Virus genome (UHGV): UHGV-0353412
Direction: 5' to 3' (one strand)
DNA: 11,079 bases
Source of the DNA: a virus
Part shown: positions 1,063 to 6,873 of the stretch, piece after piece
Numbering within the stretch: position 1 is the first letter of the stretch
How the letters are laid out: each line of letters begins with the position of its first letter
The notes under the pieces: generated by a model
Told to the model about the DNA's origin: nothing
The model's input: only the letters and a program-made list of their open reading frames with translations
Databases searched by the model: none
Made by a program: the position numbers and the translations under genes

Positions 1063-1582
1063 CGATCCACCCGCCCACGTTTTCACCGGCCTTAGCTGAA
1101 ACATTGGAGGCTTTCGCGATTTCAGTTTTCACCACATCAAGGTGTGATGGTGAAATGTCCGGATATTTACGCTGTAATGTCAACGGCACACGCACAAGTA
1201 TCCCCGAAATCTCCTGTGCCACACGTTGCAGAATGAAGGTAAACAGTTCAGTTTCCAGCACTACTCCGTCTTCACGGGCATTTTTCAGTTCCTGCGCATC
1301 TGCCTGCGCTTTTGTGAGCCGGTAGCGTTCATAGTCAATGGTGCCGGGTTGTAAATCTGACTCCGCTGCCGCACGCAAATCGTCCAGTTCTTTGCGGAGC
1401 TTTTCGTTTTCGATATCAGTTTCCCTCTGCGCATACCACTGAATTGCCATGGCAGTATCAAATACAGATTCAATGCCCTTACTACCTTTGGAGGCGCAAG
1501 GGAGTCCCTGAGACTGCCAGCGTTCAATCGTCCGCGGGTCCACGTTGAAAATTTCGGCAAGCCTCTTTTTATTAACCTTCAT
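1034..1582 (-). CDS. nu1: Terminase small subunit (lambda Nu1-like)
   Basis: 182-aa [31 protein letters not shown]...[18 protein letters not shown]...[28 protein letters not shown] is closely similar to lambda Nu1 (MEVNKKQLADIFGASIRTIQNWQEQGMP... from memory). It lies directly downstream of the cos site and overlaps the A start. Confidence 0.93.
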
Positions 1583-1800
1583 GAAAACAACCCATTATCA
1601 AATACAAGGCCCGACATGAAAACGCCAGAAAAAGGCATTTTCGGACACTTTCATGTCGGACCTTTACGGATGCAATATTAAAAAAAACAAAAAGTTATAT
1701 TCGAGAAGTACCGACACGATTTTCCCTGAAAAATTTTCATAAATAGTGAAAAACCGCGAGGTCGCCGCCCCGTAACGATCTGGATCACCGGAAAGGACCC
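1583..1800 (-). other. cos site: cosN with lambda-type 12-nt cohesive end (AGGTCGCCGCCC on plus strand at 1759..1770), cosB between cosN and Nu1, cosQ-like sequence at 1771..1800
   Basis: Reverse complement of 1737..1770 reads GGGCGGCGACCTCGCGGTTTTTCACTATTTATGAAAATTTTT, near-identical to the lambda left end GGGCGGCGACCTCGCGGGTTTTCGCTATTTATGAAAATTTTC. Reverse complement of 1771..1801 reads CGGGTCCTTTCCGGTGATCCAGATCGTTACG, matching the lambda right end. cosB (1583..1750) diverges from lambda and carries an inverted repeat CCGACATGAAA (1611..1621) / TTTCATGTCGG (1649..1659). Confidence 0.85.
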
Positions 1801-1993
1801 GCCAACGACTTTCGCGTGCAGGCATTAAAAATTTTGCAGTTCCATGCCTAGTTGAAACCTCGATTTCTATAACATCCAATTTTGTAAATTTAGATATAGC
1901 TCAACTTTTCCCAATGTTTTCAAGTGTATAAAAACAATTGGCGTTACGCCATAACACTATACTTAGGATAAGTAAAGATTTTAAGGAGTTTTA

Positions 1994-3061
1994 ATGAGTC
2001 AACATCAATATTATCCACAGCTGAAATGGAAGCCTGCTGAATATGAATCTCTGATGCTTTTAGATCAAACTACGCTCTCTGGTTTTACTCCGATCATTAC
2101 CATTCCAGACATAGACTGGGATTATGAAAACGAATGCTACAAGAAGAATTTGAGTTCTTACTTATCTGACTTCGGTATTAACCTTGCGGCATCCTGGAAA
2201 GCCAATCGTCCTGTTTTGCTGGATGTTAAATATTTAGATAAACATGGTTCGAGCCGCCATCATCCTCTAGATATGTGTATCCAAGATGCTAGAGTAAATG
2301 GTAAGGAAATTATCCCTGTTGTTTCTCCCGCATATTCAACAAACTATATACATGCTGTTCAACGCAACTTAATCAATGGGCTCGCTATATCTATCACCCC
2401 CCAGACATGGCACCAATTCACAAGTCTGGTTAACCACTTAAATATTCATCCTAGTTTAATTGATGTAATCATTGATTTTGGAGATATTCAAAACGCAACT
2501 GATAGTTTAAAACAACAAGCATTAAGCATGGTCAACACATTATCAGGCCAAGCTCCGTGGAGAAACTTGATTTTATCTTCAACCGCATACCCGGCATCAC
2601 AGGCAGGGATACCGCAACATCAAGTTCATCATATTCCGCGCCATGAATACGATCTTTGGATGTACGTAGTACAGAATTTTAGCAATGGAAGAACGCCAAG
2701 TTTTAGTGATTATCCCACCGCTAGCTCTACCATTACGAGCGTAGACCCACGCTTCATGTCTCAGTATGTCTCAGTGAGATATTCGAACGATACCTCATGG
2801 ATCTTTGTAAAAGGTACCGCAGTTAAAGGAAATGGATGGGGCCAAACTAAAAACTTATGTACTACCCTTGTTAGTTCGCCAGAGTATCAAGTCTTTGGCT
2901 CCAAATTTAGTTGGGGGGATGATTACATTTACCAAAGATCATTAGGCGCTAACAAATCTGGCGGCTCTAAAGAATGGCGTAAAGTTGCACATACGCACCA
3001 TATTACGTTAGTCGTGAGACAGCTTTATTGGTTGGCGCAGACTCAGCCTGCCAAGCCTTAA
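1994..3061 (+). CDS. Hypothetical 355-aa protein of the AT-rich cassette; possible 'beta protein / sce7725-like' family member (unverified), candidate defence component
   Basis: Uninterrupted 355-codon ORF with a strong SD (AAGGAG, 5-nt spacer, ATG at 1994) and an AT-rich upstream region containing TG-TATAAA at 1925..1932. About 37% GC in sampled 60-nt lines versus about 57% in a sampled line of the Rz gene. It is the only sizeable plus-strand gene in an otherwise minus-strand prophage. N-terminal YYPQLKWKPAEYESL resembles what I recall of beta/sce7725-family N-termini, but I cannot confirm this without an HMM search. Confidence 0.8.
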   Translation: MSQHQYYPQLKWKPAEYESLMLLDQTTLSGFTPIITIPDIDWDYENECYKKNLSSYLSDFGINLAASWKANRPVLLDVKYLDKHGSSRHHPLDMCIQDARVNGKEIIPVVSPAYSTNYIHAVQRNLINGLAISITPQTWHQFTSLVNHLNIHPSLIDVIIDFGDIQNATDSLKQQALSMVNTLSGQAPWRNLILSSTAYPASQAGIPQHQVHHIPRHEYDLWMYVVQNFSNGRTPSFSDYPTASSTITSVDPRFMSQYVSVRYSNDTSWIFVKGTAVKGNGWGQTKNLCTTLVSSPEYQVFGSKFSWGDDYIYQRSLGANKSGGSKEWRKVAHTHHITLVVRQLYWLAQTQPAKP

Positions 3062-3623
3062 CTTTCCAGCCTACGCGTTTCTTTAAGGCTGTTCTGACTT
3101 CAGGCCTGAGATTCGCTATTGGAATATTTTCCGCAATAATATTCCATAACTCAAATCGGGGCTTGCTTTTGATTCCTTTGGAATAGCCCCATCGTTCAAG
3201 TACGTCGATACATTCATCTTTCCAAAGCAATTGAGCGAGCATCAATGTGTCATGGTTTCGATTAAGCTTTTCTCCACGCATGTGCTTTATAAGAATGGCG
3301 CCTTTTGGCCCAACAGAAACCGTTTTAACGCCCCACCAACCTGGGATTAACTTTAATGCTCCCTCAAGGTGTTTCTCAGCTACGACAAGAGTAACCTTGT
3401 CCATTACAGAAGAATAATGCTTGATTTGAAGAGGCAAACGCTCCAAAGAGTCATATTCACTTTTGAGCTCGTACCCGTGTATAACACCATTTATTACAGC
3501 AATGTCTGCTCTACTGGCGCCAAGGGATATGGAAAATTCATCGACCACAAGGCAGTCTGGATCTAAATGCGATTCTTTCAAAAGCTTATGATGCACCGCG
3601 AACCTAACATCTTGATCTTTCAT
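3003..3623 (-). CDS. PD-(D/E)xK nuclease-fold protein, 206 aa (possibly sce7726-like); candidate effector of the cassette
   Basis: ORF with SD GGAGGGAGTAAGGAG upstream of ATG at 3623. The translation carries a canonical PD-(D/E)xK signature: E17 and D28/E29, then SRADIAVING (D40, codon 3504..3506), then GYELKS (E52 at 3468..3470, K54 at 3462..3464), followed by LPLQIKHY. Convergent with the 355-aa gene and overlapping it by 59 nt at the 3' ends. Confidence 0.85.
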   Translation of the reverse strand: MKDQDVRFAVHHKLLKESHLDPDCLVVDEFSISLGASRADIAVINGVIHGYELKSEYDSLERLPLQIKHYSSVMDKVTLVVAEKHLEGALKLIPGWWGVKTVSVGPKGAILIKHMRGEKLNRNHDTLMLAQLLWKDECIDVLERWGYSKGIKSKPRFELWNIIAENIPIANLRPEVRTALKKRVGWKVKAWQAESAPTNKAVSRLT

Positions 3624-4039: not shown

Positions 4040-4513
4040 TTATTTTAAGCACTGCGTCCTGATGTACTCCTGCAGGTAGTTGACCTGAGCGGTTAACTTG
4101 TCGATTCCACTTCGGAGACGGTAATAATTGAGTTCAGCATCTGCTGTAAGTCTTGGGCTTTCTCCATCGCCCATGCTGCTGGCTCCGGTCGTTGACTTTG
4201 CACAGGTGGCGGCGACTTGCAGGCGCTTACGCCCAGCAGAAACATCAGCACGAAGACTTTCGATAGTCGCGTTAGCATCAGCAAGCTCCTTTGTGTATCT
4301 GGCGTCGAGTTCTGCTACATCACGCTGACGCATCTGCATGTCAGTAATTGCCACGTTCGCCAGCTTCAGTTCTCTGGCATTTTTGTCGCGCTGGGCTTTG
4401 TAGGTAATGGCGTTATCGCGGTAATGATTAACAGCCCATGACAGGCAGACGATGGTGCAGATAACCAGAGTATAAATAATCGCTGCGACTCTGCTCACTG
4501 ATCTATCCCCCAA
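4040..4513 (-). CDS. Rz: Rz i-spanin (inner-membrane spanin subunit)
   Basis: 157-aa ORF with an N-terminal TM segment ([71 protein letters not shown]...) that is highly similar to lambda Rz as I recall it. Sits directly downstream of the endolysin. Confidence 0.93.
4093..4284 (-). CDS. Rz1: Rz1 o-spanin (outer-membrane lipoprotein spanin subunit), embedded in Rz in an alternative frame
   Basis: 63-aa ORF wholly inside Rz: [22 protein letters not shown] has a lipoprotein signal and lipobox (VSAC), followed by a proline-rich mature region ([16 protein letters not shown]). This is the classic Rz/Rz1 embedded architecture. Confidence 0.85.
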
Positions 4514-5028
4514 CAGGCTAATGCGCTTTCCTGGTCACGACGAATAACCTGTCCATAGCAGTTATTTGAACGTATGCGGCAATCGCGCCCACCATCTTTT
4601 ATCCACCAGCGAATCGCCTCGCATGCGCCCTTACGATCACCGGCATTCAGCCGCTTATAAAACGTCGACGGGAAACACTTACCGGGGCCAATGTTATAGG
4701 GACATAATGACGCTATACCCGCTTTCTGTGGTTCGGTCAGTGGTACTTTAATATTGCGCTCCACCCATGCCAGCGCCTTATCACGTTCAATAGCGTTAAC
4801 CTGGTCGCATTCTTCCTTCGACAGCTTCATTCCCGGTATGACGGGCTTACCATCCACCATTGTGGCACCACGACAGATGGTCCATATACCGGAACCATCG
4901 CGGTATGCCGTAGTGTGGTTACCCTCTTTTTCATCCAGAAACTGGTCAAGTATTTGAGGAGCAGACGCGCCTGCAGCAATCAGCGCCAGAACAGCAGCTG
5001 ACAGGCCGTATTTGATTTTTGCGCTCAT
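4495..5028 (-). CDS. R: SAR endolysin (phage 21 R21-like lysozyme, T4-lysozyme/GH24 family)
   Basis: 177-aa ORF with an N-terminal Gly/Ala-rich signal-anchor-release segment ([17 protein letters not shown]) and the catalytic region [25 protein letters not shown] (E-D-T triad pattern of R21). Same length as K-12 RrrQ as I recall it. Confidence 0.93.
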
Positions 5029-5083: not shown

Positions 5084-5398
5084 CTAACAACCCGTAATCG
5101 AGTTATCAGAACTGTTAATTTTTATGGTATACCGCGCCTCTGAACAGGGGCGCGTTTCTGGCAACAGCTCGTCCCCTTCACATAACCCGGCAGCAACATC
5201 CAGGAAGACCTGTCTGATGCTCCTTCTGGCTGCTGCCTCATAAAACTCCAGCGCGGCACCTTCAACACGGTCCAGCGAGATGTCCAGGTCAAAAATTTCA
5301 CCGTCAAAGCGTTTTTTGTCCCGTAACGCTAAAGTTACCGTAACTTTATTCTCAAAATTGCGGATCCCTTTCACAATCAGTTCATATTTTTGAGTCAT
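5084..5398 (-). CDS. DUF1327-family protein (YdfR-like), function unknown, placed between holin and endolysin
   Basis: 104-aa ORF in the same position and of the same size as ydfR between essQ and rrrQ in the K-12 Qin prophage (from memory). No signal peptide or catalytic motif recognised. The family name is recalled, not verified. Confidence 0.7.
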   Translation of the reverse strand: MTQKYELIVKGIRNFENKVTVTLALRDKKRFDGEIFDLDISLDRVEGAALEFYEAAARRSIRQVFLDVAAGLCEGDELLPETRPCSEARYTIKINSSDNSITGC

Positions 5399-5402
5399 TG
5401 AA

Positions 5403-5618
5403 TTACTCTCCCCGTGCAGCCTTACGCTTGTCTTCTTTAATCTTGAAATAAAGGTTTGTCAGGTACGTCAGCAGGCCAAATACCAGGCTACCCAGCACAC
5501 CTATTGCTGCCCACTGTGAGGGCGTGACTTTATCGAGCAGCTGTAAAAACCAGTAGCCAGCACTGCCTGCGGAGGTGCCGTAGGCAATGCCTGTTGAAAT
5601 TTTGTCCATGGATTTCAT
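5403..5618 (-). CDS. S: Pinholin S21-type holin/antiholin with dual-start motif (MKSMDK)
   Basis: Translation [71 protein letters not shown] is near-identical to phage 21 S21 as I recall it. ATG at 5618 gives the 71-aa antiholin form and ATG at 5609 the 68-aa holin form. SD GGAGGTGAGG lies upstream of 5618. The track's 90-aa extension to 5675 was not used. Confidence 0.9.
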
Positions 5619-5720
5619 AACCTCACCTCCGCACGGAACGGATGGCATAGTTGTTATGTGTAGGCTTCCAGACACATCAATCAGAGCCTTAATTGATATA
5701 TATGCTGGAGACGATGCAAT

Positions 5721-5744
5721 ATAAAAAGCTCGCCGTAGCGAGCT
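5721..5744 (-). terminator. Putative rho-independent terminator downstream of the lipoprotein moron genes
   Basis: Minus-strand hairpin AGCTCGC-TACG-GCGAGCT (7-bp stem, plus 5727..5744) followed by TTTTTAT, between the lipoprotein gene (ends 5870) and the holin start (5618). Confidence 0.5.
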
Positions 5745-5869
5745 AATAAAATGTATTTCTCTGATATTATGTTTATTTGTATTAGCTCAGACTTGACATC
5801 ACAGGTTTCGTATATAGAACATCATCAAATCTGTCAGTTTGCTATGAATGAGATATAGTAATTGAAGAG

Positions 5870-6265
5870 CTAACCTCGCATGTCAAAGCCAGATTTCTGA
5901 AAATCTCTGTAGACTTCCGGATTGTTGAAGGCCGGAAATTTGGCTTTATGAGCTGCGGACTTTATCGCTTCGCAATAGGCTTTATCACCGTTACTGGTAG
6001 ATATTTTTAACGCCGTGCCATCCTGAGAGAATTCCATATGCAACCTGCATTTTTTCCCTTTCCAGTTATGCGGCTCATCAAGTTTGGCATTAATTGCAGC
6101 TCTGATTCCCCGCGCTTGCGCCCCCCATTCATCCTGATCATCCCAGCGTCCTGAACTGCAACTACCTGTAGCAGTAGTTTTGTGGCAATCTGAAGGGTGT
6201 AAAGGTGTGCATCCCGCAACAAAACCGACCCAAAAAGTCAACATAACGATTTTCTTTAATCCCAC
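5870..6265 (-). CDS. Lipoprotein with a divergent TolA domain-III-like C-terminal domain (moron)
   Basis: 131-aa ORF with GTG start at 6265 preceded by SD GAGGAG. Signal peptide with lipobox (MGLKKIVMLTFWVGFVAGC). The C-terminal KGKKCRLHMEFSQDGTALKISTSNGDKAYCEAIKSAAHKAKFPAFNNPEVYRDFQKS is paralogous to the C-terminus of the adjacent 142-aa lipoprotein and shares its TolA-III-like pattern. Confidence 0.8.
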   Translation of the reverse strand: MGLKKIVMLTFWVGFVAGCTPLHPSDCHKTTATGSCSSGRWDDQDEWGAQARGIRAAINAKLDEPHNWKGKKCRLHMEFSQDGTALKISTSNGDKAYCEAIKSAAHKAKFPAFNNPEVYRDFQKSGFDMRG

Positions 6266-6415
6266 TTCTTGCTCCTCAATCCATTAAAATCTCAGCAATA
6301 GTAGTTGTTACGTCCGCCACTGGCTCAGAGCTGACTATCCGCTAAATTTAGCTCAGTGCCGTAGTTGTGTCAGAACAAACCTAAGCCGAAACCGTTTATT
6401 ACAAAACAATAAATA

Positions 6416-6844
6416 TCAGGGTTTAAAATCCAGCACCCCATTTTGAAATACTTTATATACTTCCGGCGAAGGGGGGGCAGGTATATCAGCATTCTTTATC
6501 GCATTCATCGCTTCACGACATAAATCGAGGTCTCCACTTTCTCTTTTAACCTCCAGTAGAAGGCCATTCGGGGCCATATGCATTCTCAGTGTACACTCTT
6601 TTCCTGAATACTTACTCGCATCCCCGAACTGTTTTTCGATGGCGCTCTTGATTTGATGGGCATACAGACGGATATCCTCACTAACATCAGAAGTACGTTC
6701 AGATGAACTCACATACTGTGTCTCTATTGCTTTATCGGAGTAATATGATGTACGGTCATGATAATTTGTCGATACAGCATCAGTGCACCCGATAATAATC
6801 CCACTAATAATCAACGTAAGAATTGATGCGCTACGAAAACCCAT
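6416..6844 (-). CDS. Lipoprotein with a TolA C-terminal domain (domain III)-like fold (moron)
   Basis: 142-aa ORF with SD GAGGAAAA before ATG at 6844 and lipobox IIGC. The C-terminal YAHQIKSAIEKQFGDASKYSGKECTLRMHMAPNGLLLEVKRESGDLDLCREAMNAIKNADIPAPPSPEVYKVFQNGVLDFKP aligns along its length with the E. coli TolA C-terminus as I recall it (YAGQIKSAIESKFYDASSYAGKTCTLRIKLAPDGMLLDIKPEGGDPALCQAALAAAKLAKIPKPPSQAVYEVFKNAPLDFKP). Confidence 0.85.
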   Translation of the reverse strand: MGFRSASILTLIISGIIIGCTDAVSTNYHDRTSYYSDKAIETQYVSSSERTSDVSEDIRLYAHQIKSAIEKQFGDASKYSGKECTLRMHMAPNGLLLEVKRESGDLDLCREAMNAIKNADIPAPPSPEVYKVFQNGVLDFKP

Positions 6845-6873
6845 TTTTCCTCACATATGTCATATAGTAAAGG

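What the first reader, a model, noticed from the sequence alone, without database searches (positions are those of the whole stretch)
5870..6844. Two tandem prophage lipoproteins carrying TolA domain-III-like C-terminal domains (possible Tol-system decoys)
Both morons encode lipobox-bearing signal peptides (IIGC and VAGC) followed by a roughly 80-aa domain. For the 142-aa protein this domain aligns along its whole length with the C-terminal domain III of E. coli TolA as I recall it (about half the residues identical, including KSAIE, CTLR, APxGxLL, IPxPPSxxVYxVFxNxxLDFKP). The 131-aa paralogue is more divergent but keeps the same Cys spacing and the PEVY..F motif. TolA domain III is the periplasmic contact surface for TolB and Pal and is the receptor used by Tol-dependent colicins and by filamentous phage g3p. 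A lipid-anchored copy expressed from a prophage could titrate those ligands, giving colicin or filamentous-phage exclusion, or could modulate Tol-Pal envelope function during lysogeny or lysis. The locus lies between Q and S, the position stx occupies in Stx phages, and has its own promoter and terminator.
Basis: partly seen in the sequence, partly recalled or inferred. Interest (0 to 1): 0.7.

Follow-up and report, generated by a model that had tools for sequence, protein, structure and literature searches.

The report
Prophage lipoproteins copying the TolA tip
A lambdoid E. coli prophage carries two small lipoprotein genes whose folded part copies the tip of the host protein TolA, the periplasmic docking point used by many colicins and filamentous phages. 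They most likely act as decoys that block such entry, but this has not been tested.

Summary
On the minus strand, 6416-6844 (A, 142 aa) and 5870-6265 (B, 131 aa) each encode a signal peptide with a lipobox, a disordered linker and a TolA C-terminal (domain III) fold. Pfam scores are 2e-23 and 1e-14. A is 59% and B 31% identical to E. coli TolA 334-421. The AF2 models fit TolA-III crystal structures at 0.6-1.3 Å.

The genes form one moron-like unit (promoter-like site, no internal terminator, strong terminator) between Q/tRNAs and the P21-type holin. The unit is present at ≥99% identity in 773 of 5426 complete E. coli genomes.

A and B are not recent paralogues. A is confined to E. coli/Shigella prophages. 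B belongs to a strongly conserved family (dN/dS about 0.1) found as single chromosomal genes in Enterobacter, Citrobacter and other genera, after the relaxase gene of IncB/O and IncK/Z plasmids, and on pO157.

A third lineage sits beside a secreted TonB C-terminal domain on 238 mainly Klebsiella plasmids that encode a cloacin/colicin-E3-type bacteriocin.

RefSeq already names the domain, but I found no functional study. The best reading is outer-membrane-tethered decoys of the TolA hub giving tolerance to Tol-dependent bacteriocins and filamentous phages (about 0.5). This is a new variant of a known kind.

The parts
6874..6903 (-). Promoter-like site (TTGAGC, 18 nt, TATAAT) about 30 nt upstream of gene A. 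Candidate promoter of the moron unit.
   Evidence: 10 of 12 matches, the best-scoring site in 5400-8300. This is a consensus match only.
6416..6844 (-). Gene A: 142-aa lipoprotein with a C-terminal TolA domain-III fold.
   Evidence: RefSeq names it 'cell envelope integrity protein TolA'.
6785..6844 (-). A residues 1-20: signal peptide with lipobox IIGC. Cys20 would be the lipidated residue. The +2 residue is Thr, not Asp, so outer-membrane sorting is predicted by the E. coli Lol rule.
   Evidence: Direct reading. The lipobox is kept in alleles only 65-74% identical (LT[TAN]GC). The sorting rule is established knowledge; localisation was not tested.
6683..6784 (-). A residues 21-54: disordered linker or tether.
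   Evidence: AF2 pLDDT below 50. dN/dS 0.50 against allele P0028.
6419..6682 (-). A residues 55-142: TolA-III domain. Helices 56-72, 76-79, 106-118, 127-133; strands 84-90, 96-104, 135-140; Cys84 and Cys109.
   Evidence: Strand β2 is LLEVKR (TolA LLDIKP) and strand β3 is GVLDFK (TolA APLDFK). dN/dS 0.24.
6266..6415 (-). A-B intergenic spacer with no terminator, so A and B are probably co-transcribed. It holds a weak promoter-like site at 6373-6345.
   Evidence: fold no better than shuffles, z +0.63.. The spacing is fixed at 154 nt in 76 of 80 viral contigs.
5870..6265 (-). Gene B: 131-aa lipoprotein (GTG start) with a divergent TolA domain-III fold.
   Evidence: RefSeq names it 'TolA C-terminal domain-containing protein'.
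6209..6265 (-). B residues 1-19: signal peptide with lipobox VAGC. The +2 residue is Thr.
   Evidence: Direct reading. The [VA][AST]GC lipobox is conserved across the family.
6137..6208 (-). B residues 20-43: conserved Cys-containing linker TPLHPSDCHKTTATGSCSSGRWDDQDEW.
   Evidence: AF2 pLDDT below 50, yet dN/dS is 0.08. The C-x8-C pattern is kept in remote representatives. Its function is unexplained.
5873..6136 (-). B residues 44-131: TolA-III domain. Strands 72-79, 85-93, 125-130; Cys73 and Cys98.
   Evidence: β3 is SGFDMR. β2 is ALKIST, and the three lysines that contact colicin A are replaced by E, S and H. dN/dS 0.056.
5717..5744 (-). Intrinsic-terminator-like hairpin (7-bp GC-rich stem, 4-nt loop, U-tract) between B and the holin gene.
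   Evidence: ΔG -16.4 kcal/mol, z -3.6, 0 of 200 shuffles fold as well.
8237..9058 (-). Context: antiterminator Q. The late transcript would read through A and B.
   Evidence: PF03589, 2.6e-55.
5403..5618 (-). Context: P21-type holin (essD), the first gene of the lysis cassette.

Best explanation
A and B are stand-alone, lipid-anchored copies of the ligand-binding tip of TolA.

Proposed mechanism:
1. Each protein is exported, lipidated at the lipobox Cys and, having no Asp at +2, sorted to the inner leaflet of the outer membrane.
2. A 24-34-residue flexible tether holds a TolA-III domain just under the outer membrane. The edge strand β3 of that domain is free, because the protein ends 1-2 residues after it.
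3. The domain lacks TolA domains I and II, so it cannot couple to TolQR or the proton motive force.
4. Any ligand that docks on it by β-strand augmentation is therefore captured non-productively. Candidate ligands are the translocation domains of group A colicins, cloacins and klebicins, g3p N1 of Ff/If1-type filamentous phages, and the TolB N-terminus exposed by colicin-bound TolB.
5. The result would be tolerance of the lysogen, or plasmid host, to these agents.

A keeps both known sites nearly intact (β2 for colicin A, β3 for g3p, colicin N and TolB). B keeps only a β3-type edge, so its ligand range is probably different.

Expression would come from the unit's own promoter in the lysogen, and from read-through of the Q-antiterminated late transcript after induction.

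Shown here: the genes, the lipobox, the TolA-III fold, purifying selection, the distribution and the genomic contexts.

Inferred: localisation, ligand binding and the phenotype.
For: - Fold and sites. Both are TolA-III by sequence and by model. In A, β2 is LLEVKR and β3 is GVLDFK, and K379 and K396 are retained. The known ligands bind mainly through backbone strand augmentation and tolerate substitutions (PMC4339652, PMC3365938).
- No energy coupling. Only the last ~95 positions of the full-length TolA models are matched.
- The lipobox is conserved in divergent alleles, and in 54 of 70 complete short representatives of the class.
- Functional constraint. dN/dS is 0.06-0.12 for B and 0.24 for the A domain.
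- Repeated assembly of the same architecture. A, B and the Klebsiella plasmid lineage are each at least as close to E. coli TolA (59, 31 and 48%) as to one another (28-39%).
- Association with a bacteriocin. 238 plasmids, mainly Klebsiella ColRNAI-type (two 10-12 kb examples read), carry a TolA-III lipoprotein overlapping a signal-peptide-bearing TonB C-terminal domain. The pair lies beside a cloacin/colicin-E3-type (Tol-dependent) bacteriocin-immunity-lysis operon. Related plasmids carry an Exc2 entry-exclusion lipoprotein within the region matched by the same query. TolA-III and TonB-CTD share only their role as the import hubs that bacteriocins and phages exploit.
- Association with I-type pili. 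The B-type gene lies 67 bp after the relaxase gene nikB on IncB/O and IncK/Z plasmids. I pili are the receptor of phage If1 (PMC3102678), and If1 g3p binds TolA-III (PDB 2x9a).
- Context elsewhere. B-family genes are single-gene insertions at different chromosomal sites, once next to GmrSD and HEPN defence genes.
- Reciprocal precedent. Periplasmic g3p-N1 gives colicin A resistance and a 4-log drop in phage uptake by sequestering TolA (PMC10424213).
- Affinities. They favour selective capture: colicin A T-domain to TolA-III about 1.3 µM, against TolB to TolA-III 40-200 µM.
- From memory, paper not held: Levengood-Freyermuth et al. 1993 reported that free periplasmic TolA-III made wild-type cells tolerant to colicins E1, E2, E3 and A.
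Against: - No binding, localisation or phenotype data exist for these proteins.
- PADLOC has no model for them, and PHROG 5772 is 'unknown function'.
- B has lost all three lysines of the colicin A site and is only 31% identical to TolA, so its ligand may not be a Tol ligand at all.
- A TolA residue implicated in TolB binding (Tyr 'Y352' in Walburger numbering, Y353 in the numbering used here) is Gly in A and Asp in B. The numbering offset makes this uncertain.
- From memory, a free TolA-III domain also makes cells leaky. That would be costly and fits the rival explanation equally well.
- Placement in the late operon next to the lysis genes is also what a lysis accessory would show.
- Only 1 of 50,697 sequenced phage records carries the genes.
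Confidence: 0.5

Rival explanations
1. Tol-Pal interference for envelope weakening. The free TolA-III domains titrate the TolB N-terminus and locally disable Tol-Pal. This loosens the outer membrane to help phage lysis and release, toxin or bacteriocin release, or vesicle production after induction.
For: - The genes lie in the Q-dependent late transcript immediately upstream of the holin, endolysin and spanin genes.
- A third lineage lies next to a bacteriocin-lysis operon.
- TolB uses the same β3 site as g3p and colicin N.
- From memory, periplasmic TolA-III causes leakage of periplasmic proteins (Levengood-Freyermuth 1993).
- A paper reports a prophage gene annotated TolA in EDL933 as 32-fold induced by ciprofloxacin (PMC11125564). 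Its homology to A or B was not verified.
Against: - It does not explain the partner TonB C-terminal domain on the bacteriocin plasmids. TonB has no role in outer-membrane integrity.
- It does not explain the B-type genes in the relaxase operon of conjugative plasmids, or the stably inherited single chromosomal genes under strong purifying selection.
- The unit has its own promoter-like site and terminator, as expected for lysogen-expressed morons.
- TolB binds TolA-III weakly (40-200 µM).
Confidence: 0.2
2. B, and possibly the whole class of short TolA-III lipoproteins, is a native envelope protein with its own unknown partner. That partner might be an outer-membrane or periplasmic protein docked by strand augmentation. 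On this reading its presence on phages and plasmids is ordinary cargo, not a decoy function.
For: - The B family sits at conserved chromosomal loci in Enterobacter and in other genera.
- At least 70 complete short representatives exist at 50% clustering, most with a lipobox.
- B's linker with its C-x8-C motif is as constrained as the domain (dN/dS 0.08), which suggests a specific interaction beyond a simple tether.
- The colicin A site is lost.
Against: - The chromosomal sites differ between genera and look like single-gene insertions.
- There is no conserved neighbouring partner gene.
- Repeated recruitment onto mobile elements that are themselves targets or producers of Tol-dependent agents.
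- E. coli holds the gene only on mobile elements.
Confidence: 0.2
3. The genes are decaying fragments of a captured tolA gene with no function, mis-called as genes.
For: RefSeq names A with the full-length TolA name although it holds only domain III.
Against: - Both reading frames are intact, with Shine-Dalgarno motifs.
- Lipoboxes are conserved.
- dN/dS is 0.06-0.36.
- The unit is ≥99% identical in 773 genomes.
- The tandem is invariant in 80 of 80 viral contigs.
- Both folded domains are predicted with high confidence.
Confidence: 0.03

Closest known systems
E. coli TolA domain III (residues ~334-421; PDB 1S62, 3QDP, 1TOL, 2X9A)
   Same: Same fold, same disulfide cysteines and same C-terminal β3 strand ending the protein. 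A is 59% identical, with β2 and β3 nearly unchanged. B is 31% identical.
   Different: No transmembrane domain I and no helical domain II, so no link to TolQR or the proton motive force. Instead there is a lipoprotein signal peptide and a short disordered tether, which predicts anchoring from the outer-membrane side.
Laboratory constructs that export free TolA-III, or free g3p-N1, to the periplasm (dominant-negative tol phenotypes)
   Same: A free hub domain, or its ligand, in the periplasm blocks colicin and Ff phage import. For g3p-N1 see PMC10424213 and PMC3102678. The TolA-III version (Levengood-Freyermuth 1993) is from memory.
   Different: Those are artificial, soluble and overproduced. 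A and B are natural, lipid-anchored genes carried on mobile elements.
Outer-membrane lipoproteins of phages and plasmids that block entry: Cor (φ80, N15, mEp167), Llp (T5), TraT (F), Exc2 (ColE1-type)
   Same: Small lipoproteins encoded by mobile elements and expressed in the carrier state to protect the host from incoming phages, colicins or DNA. Exc2 lipoprotein genes lie next to the bacteriocin genes in related cloacin plasmids, within the region matched by the same query.
   Different: No sequence relation. Those proteins inactivate an outer-membrane receptor. A and B would instead imitate a periplasmic co-receptor. The functions of Cor, Llp and TraT are from general knowledge and were not checked here.
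TolA-III lipoprotein plus secreted TonB-CTD pair on Klebsiella bacteriocin plasmids (WP_001237044.1, WP_072354022.1)
   Same: Lipobox (LTAC), linker and TolA-III domain ending FKNAPLDFRP, carried on a mobile element.
   Different: Only 39% identical to A. Paired with a TonB domain rather than a second TolA-III domain. Lies next to a Tol-dependent bacteriocin operon. Also uncharacterised as far as I could find.

Membership tests
TolA C-terminal domain (Pfam PF06519) | Sequence match above the curated gathering score (25 bits) | tested here: met
   A 82.6 bits, B 54.6 bits.
TolA C-terminal domain (Pfam PF06519) | α/β fold with a three-stranded antiparallel sheet packed on helices, superposable on solved TolA-III | tested here: met
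   AF2 domain pLDDT above 90 for A and mostly above 90 for B. Foldseek: A versus 2x9a_B rmsd 0.6 Å, TMt 0.94; B versus 3qdp rmsd 1.1 Å, TMt 0.92.
TolA C-terminal domain (Pfam PF06519) | Conserved cysteine pair (TolA C363 and C388) | tested here: met
   A C84 and C109; B C73 and C98; same 25-residue spacing.
Full-length TolA (NCBIfam TIGR02794 / PRK09510 equivalogs; 'cell envelope integrity protein TolA') | N-terminal inner-membrane anchor (domain I) that couples to TolQR | tested here: not met
   Only model positions 265-362 and 293-386 are matched. The N-terminus is a lipoprotein signal peptide.
Full-length TolA (NCBIfam TIGR02794 / PRK09510 equivalogs; 'cell envelope integrity protein TolA') | Long helical, Ala/Lys-rich domain II that spans the periplasm | tested here: not met
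   The proteins are 142 and 131 aa, with a 24-34-residue disordered linker.
Full-length TolA (NCBIfam TIGR02794 / PRK09510 equivalogs; 'cell envelope integrity protein TolA') | Score above the curated whole-protein cut-off | tested here: inconclusive
   A passes TIGR02794 (75.6 against 59.45), which explains its RefSeq name, but fails PRK09510 (107.8 against 213). B fails both. The RefSeq name for A overstates what the protein is.
Bacterial lipoproteins (Lgt/LspA/Lnt substrates) | Signal peptide with a basic n-region, a hydrophobic h-region and a lipobox [LVI][ASTVI][GAS]C | tested here: met
   A has R4, ILTLIISGIII and IIGC. B has K4 K5, IVMLTFWVGF and VAGC. The Cys is invariant in both families.
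Bacterial lipoproteins (Lgt/LspA/Lnt substrates) | Actual lipidation, and outer-membrane sorting (no Asp at +2) | not testable with these tools
   The +2 residue is Thr in both proteins. Localisation is inferred from the E. coli Lol rule.
Lambdoid 'moron' (independently transcribed accessory unit) | Own promoter and terminator, inserted between conserved modules, with deviating base composition | tested here: inconclusive
   Promoter-like site with 10 of 12 matches. Terminator hairpin z -3.6. GC 41-46% against 49-51% in Q and the lysis genes. Slot between Q/tRNAs and the holin. No transcript data.
Entry-exclusion or receptor-blocking lipoproteins (Cor, Llp, TraT, Exc2) and known defence systems | Sequence membership in a described family | tested here: not met
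   No PADLOC hit. PHROG 5772 'unknown function'. The resemblance is functional only.
Receptor or co-receptor decoy | Binds the invader's ligand without supporting entry, and protects the cell | not testable with these tools
   Only conservation of the binding edges and genomic associations are available.

The most novel reading that the evidence does not exclude
Lipid-anchored or secreted stand-alone copies of the TolA and TonB C-terminal hub domains may form a widespread, repeatedly evolved and so far unrecognised class of import-blocking decoys. They are carried by prophages (14% of complete E. coli genomes), pO157, plasmids of the IncI pilus complex, Klebsiella bacteriocin plasmids and variable chromosomal sites. 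On this reading they give broad tolerance to Tol- and Ton-dependent bacteriocins and to filamentous phages, acting by mimicry of a periplasmic co-receptor rather than by modification of a surface receptor.
Probability: 0.4. Interest if true: 0.75.

Novelty: new variant of a known kind. Interest (0 to 1): 0.6.

Why it matters
- It would add a new type of protection carried by mobile elements: mimicry of the periplasmic hub that group A colicins, cloacins, klebicins and Ff/If1-type phages must dock on.
- The genes are common in E. coli, including STEC and EAEC strains and pO157, and related genes sit on widespread Klebsiella plasmids. They could therefore shape bacteriocin-mediated competition in the gut.
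- They could also limit bacteriocin-based or filamentous-phage-based antimicrobials and plasmid-targeting 'male-specific' phage strategies.
- The current RefSeq name ('cell envelope integrity protein TolA') is misleading for a 142-aa lipoprotein. It can corrupt analyses that count tolA genes.
- The hypothesis is directly testable with standard colicin and M13/If1 spot assays.

Tried and rejected
- Literature. None returned a study of these proteins. The search and paper caps are exhausted, so a subscription-only or very recent paper cannot be excluded.
- yggA. I suspected the plasmid gene was R64 yggA. It is not: yggA lies on the other side of oriT, and classical IncI1 pESBL has trbC directly after nikB.
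- TolB-box mimicry by B's linker (SSGRWDDQDEW against colicin DGSGWSSE). Rejected as a lead because remote family members keep the C-x8-C pattern but not the Trp/acidic motif.
- Lysis accessory as the main explanation. Downgraded because of the plasmid and chromosomal contexts and the TonB-CTD partner.
- Genome-contig scan with the A domain. It returned only one Shigella flexneri locus, because the back-translated patterns were too specific. The donor of A's domain could therefore not be traced.
- BFVD fold search gave no viral structural match.
- EDL933. The statement in PMC11125564 about an induced 'TolA' gene in prophage CP-933O could not be tied to A or B.
- No enrichment of identity at ligand-contact positions over the domain average could be shown for A. 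Both are roughly 50-65%.
Full report
**1. What is in the sequence**

The window is the late-regulation and lysis region of a lambdoid prophage, read on the minus strand. The gene order is as follows.

| Feature | Coordinates |
|---|---|
| DUF968 | 9436-10491 |
| RusA | 9055-9435 |
| Antiterminator Q | 8237-9058 |
| tRNA, anticodon CAT | 8018-8093 |
| tRNA-Arg, anticodon TCT | 7841-7917 |
| 114-aa ORF of unknown function | 7378-7722 |
| DUF3927 | 7211-7342 |
| Gene A | 6416-6844 |
| Gene B | 5870-6265 |
| P21-type holin | 5403-5618 |
| DUF1327 | 5084-5398 |
| Lysozyme | 4495-5028 |
| Rz, with embedded Rz1 (4093-4284) | 4040-4513 |
| Nu1 | 1034-1582 |

- The same 1.3-kb A-B segment occurs at ≥99% identity in 773 of 5426 complete E. 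coli genomes, including strain 55989.
- It also occurs in phage mEp460_ev081.
- In 80 of 80 retrieved IMG/VR contigs A is followed by B, with a fixed 154-nt spacing in 76 of them. The order is Q, A, B, holin, lysozyme.

**2. Check of the observation**

Both ORFs exist, each with a good ribosome-binding site and a lipoprotein signal peptide.
- A has IIGC with Cys20. B has VAGC with Cys19.
- For B the GTG start (GAGGAG, 6 nt, GTG) is better supported than the internal ATG used by RefSeq, because homologues keep the basic n-region.

Homology to TolA domain III is beyond doubt.
- Pfam PF06519 at 2.4e-23 for A and 1.3e-14 for B.
- E. coli TolA-III chains in the PDB at 5e-28 and 5e-9.
- Identity to TolA 334-421 without gaps is 59% for A and 31% for B.

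The AlphaFold models agree.
- Each has a disordered N-terminal linker and a confident C-terminal domain.
- A superposes on solved TolA-III at 0.6-0.7 Å on 2x9a and 1tol. B superposes at 1.1-1.3 Å on 3qdp, 3qdr, 2x9a and 1tol.
- In both models the last strand (β3) ends the protein, so that sheet edge is free.

**3. Transcription unit**

- The best σ70-like site in the region (TTGAGC, 18 nt, TATAAT) lies 30 nt upstream of A.
- There is no terminator between A and B.
- A strong hairpin with a U-tract follows B, before the holin gene (ΔG -16.4 kcal/mol, z -3.6).
- GC content is 41-46%, against 49-51% in the neighbouring phage genes.

This is the anatomy of a moron. It would be transcribed on its own in the lysogen and read through by the Q-modified late transcript. 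None of this has been shown experimentally.

**4. A and B have different histories**

A is closer to host TolA (59%) than to B (28%).

The A family:
- It is small and confined to E. coli and Shigella (46 clusters; one species-level hit).
- Alleles of roughly 80-94% nucleotide identity occur in a further 136 genomes.
- The one allele whose context was examined (P0028, 66% protein identity) sits in the same Q-to-holin slot without B.

The B family:
- It is large (370 clusters).
- It is found as single chromosomal genes at different sites in different genera. In Enterobacter it lies between gpx and ridA-like genes. In Citrobacter it lies near ars. In a third lineage (protein named from Serratia marcescens) it lies next to GmrSD and HEPN genes.
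- It lies 67 bp downstream of the relaxase gene nikB on IncB/O and IncK/Z conjugative plasmids.
- It lies next to toxB on pO157.
- About 600 plasmid records carry it.
- B is under strong purifying selection: dN/dS 0.11 against the plasmid copy and 0.08 against the Enterobacter copy. This includes its Cys-containing linker.

**5. A wider class**

An exhaustive profile-free search with B found 130 representatives at 50% clustering.
- 70 are complete short proteins of 100-175 aa, and 54 of those have a lipobox-like motif. Only 19 are longer than 175 aa, the class in which genuine TolA falls.
- The named members come from Erwinia, Klebsiella, Enterobacter, Dryocola and Leclercia, and carry only domain-based names.

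A tblastn search of plasmids found about 690 further records, mostly Klebsiella. The most informative are the 10-12 kb ColRNAI plasmids of K. pneumoniae.
- They hold a 123-aa TolA-III lipoprotein with lipobox LTAC that ends FKNAPLDFRP.
- Its gene overlaps the gene of a 121-aa protein made of a cleavable signal peptide plus a TonB C-terminal domain (PF03544 at 9e-11; PDB TonB at 1e-15).
- The pair is divergent from a bacteriocin with a cloacin translocation domain, a colicin-E2-type receptor domain and an E3-type rRNase, followed by immunity and lysis genes.
- The whole 3.8-kb unit is in 238 plasmids, mainly Klebsiella.
- Related cloacin plasmids carry an Exc2 entry-exclusion lipoprotein within the region matched by the same query.

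Another lineage, a 144-aa protein with lipobox LITAC, sits beside a thioredoxin-fold gene on Klebsiella plasmids; the one example examined is typed IncR.

The A, B and Klebsiella lineages are each at least as similar to E. coli TolA as to one another. This suggests that the architecture of lipobox, tether and TolA-III has been assembled more than once. Only E. coli TolA was available as a reference, so this is provisional.

**6. How it most likely works**

Background from the literature:
- TolA-III is the periplasmic hub on which g3p N1 of filamentous phages, colicin N and the TolB N-terminus dock by β-strand augmentation at β3. Colicin A docks at β2 (PMC7391070, PMC3365938, PMC4339652).
- The contacts are largely through the backbone and tolerate substitutions.

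Mapping onto A and B:

| Site in TolA | TolA | A | B |
|---|---|---|---|
| β2 (colicin A), 375-380 | LLDIKP | LLEVKR | ALKIST |
| Colicin A lysines K368, K379, K396 | K, K, K | H, K, K | E, S, H |
| β3 (g3p, colicin N, TolB), 415-420 | APLDFK | GVLDFK | SGFDMR |

Neither protein has domains I or II, so a ligand captured by them cannot be energised.

With Thr at +2, both should be sorted to the outer membrane (Lol rule, general knowledge). The domain would then sit on a 24-34-residue tether exactly where translocating colicin segments and g3p emerge.

I therefore favour non-productive capture, that is, a decoy giving tolerance. Supporting points:
- Periplasmic g3p-N1 blocks colicin A and Ff uptake by sequestering TolA (PMC10424213).
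- From memory, exported TolA-III made cells tolerant to colicins E1, E2, E3 and A (Levengood-Freyermuth 1993; paper not held).
- Colicin A binds TolA-III at about 1.3 µM, but TolB binds at only 40-200 µM. A modest amount of decoy could therefore trap invaders while barely disturbing Tol-Pal.
- The pairing with a free TonB C-terminal domain on a bacteriocin plasmid is hard to explain except through import, because import is the only property the two hubs share.
- The nikB-linked copy sits on plasmids whose pili belong to the I complex. I pili are the receptor of If1, and If1 g3p binds TolA-III (PDB 2x9a). That IncB/O/K/Z thin pili are also If1 receptors is from memory.

**7. Rival explanations**

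1. Envelope weakening by TolB titration, to aid lysis, release or vesiculation (0.2). This fits the late-operon position, but not the plasmid and chromosomal contexts or the TonB partner.
2. A native envelope role with an unknown partner, especially for B (0.2). B's linker is conserved and its colicin A site is lost.
3. Non-functional remnants (0.03). This is contradicted by selection and conservation.

**8. Comparison with what is known, and novelty**

- Membership in the TolA_C domain family is met. Membership in 'TolA' proper is not, because there is no membrane anchor and no domain II. The RefSeq name arises because A passes the TIGR02794 cut-off on domain III alone.
- In function the proteins resemble the entry-blocking lipoproteins of phages and plasmids (Cor, Llp, TraT, Exc2). 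They are unrelated in sequence and would act by imitating a periplasmic co-receptor.
- PHROG 5772 is 'unknown function', PADLOC has no model, and ten literature searches found no characterisation.
- I rate it a new variant of a known kind. The homology itself is already annotated, while the function is open, plausible and easy to test.

**9. Limits**

- No binding, localisation or phenotype evidence exists.
- TolA residue numbering in older genetics papers is offset by one from the numbering used here.

Noticed in passing
window 1994-3061 (+) and 3003-3623 (-): Two convergent ORFs with overlapping 3' ends lie between Nu1 and Rz. The 355-aa one is a 'Beta protein' (PF14350, 7e-56; PADLOC PD-Lambda-2_C 6e-32 and 'beta'). 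The 206-aa one hits the PADLOC model 'cll' (3.8e-31). GC is 41-43%. This looks like an anti-phage defence cargo pair in a known lambdoid hotspot.
   Followed up: partly
window 7211-7342 (-): A small DUF3927 ORF (PF13064, 1.7e-27) matches PHROG 1470, 'TciB-like inhibition of cell division or resistance to colicin' (7.8e-13). It lies about 370 bp upstream of gene A. A second possibly colicin-related moron next to the TolA-like pair.
   Followed up: no
L102 (NZ_CP031718.1) 1512-2764 (-); the same unit is in 238 plasmids: Klebsiella pneumoniae ColRNAI bacteriocin plasmids encode an 82-aa ORF, a TolA-III lipoprotein and an overlapping secreted TonB C-terminal domain. The group is divergent from a cloacin/colicin-E3-type bacteriocin-immunity-lysis operon. 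Related plasmids carry an Exc2 lipoprotein or 'protein K/L' in the same region.
   Followed up: partly
L003 6004-6435 and L004 6004-6435 (IncB/O and IncK/Z plasmids); L005 7003-7434 (pO157): A B-type TolA-III lipoprotein gene (WP_001335086.1) lies 67 bp after the relaxase gene nikB, between nikB and trbC. A near-identical copy (WP_001453090.1) lies next to toxB on pO157. Classical IncI1 pESBL lacks it.
   Followed up: partly
window 6137-6208 (-), B residues 20-43: B's linker is predicted disordered but is as constrained as the folded domain (dN/dS 0.08). It holds two extra cysteines in a C-x8-C pattern that is conserved even in remote family members. Its purpose is unknown.
   Followed up: partly
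window 6416-6844 (-); RefSeq WP_000506936.1: RefSeq labels the 142-aa lipoprotein with gene name tolA and product 'cell envelope integrity protein TolA'. Domain III alone passes the TIGR02794 cut-off, so this is an over-annotation that could mislead gene counts.
   Followed up: yes
window 7841-7917 and 8018-8093 (-): tRNA-Arg (TCT) and a tRNA with anticodon CAT (called tRNA-Ile in RefSeq for strain 55989) lie just downstream of Q, as in Stx phages. No stx genes are present.
   Followed up: no
L018 and L019 5001-7736: In one lineage (protein named from Serratia marcescens) the chromosomal B-family gene lies directly beside GmrSD (type IV restriction) and HEPN-domain genes, which looks like a defence-island setting.
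   Followed up: no
L104 (NZ_CP141857.1) 5217-6246: Klebsiella plasmids (one IncR example examined) carry a thioredoxin-fold gene (DsbA/TraF-like) immediately upstream of another TolA-III lipoprotein (144 aa, lipobox LITAC).
   Followed up: no
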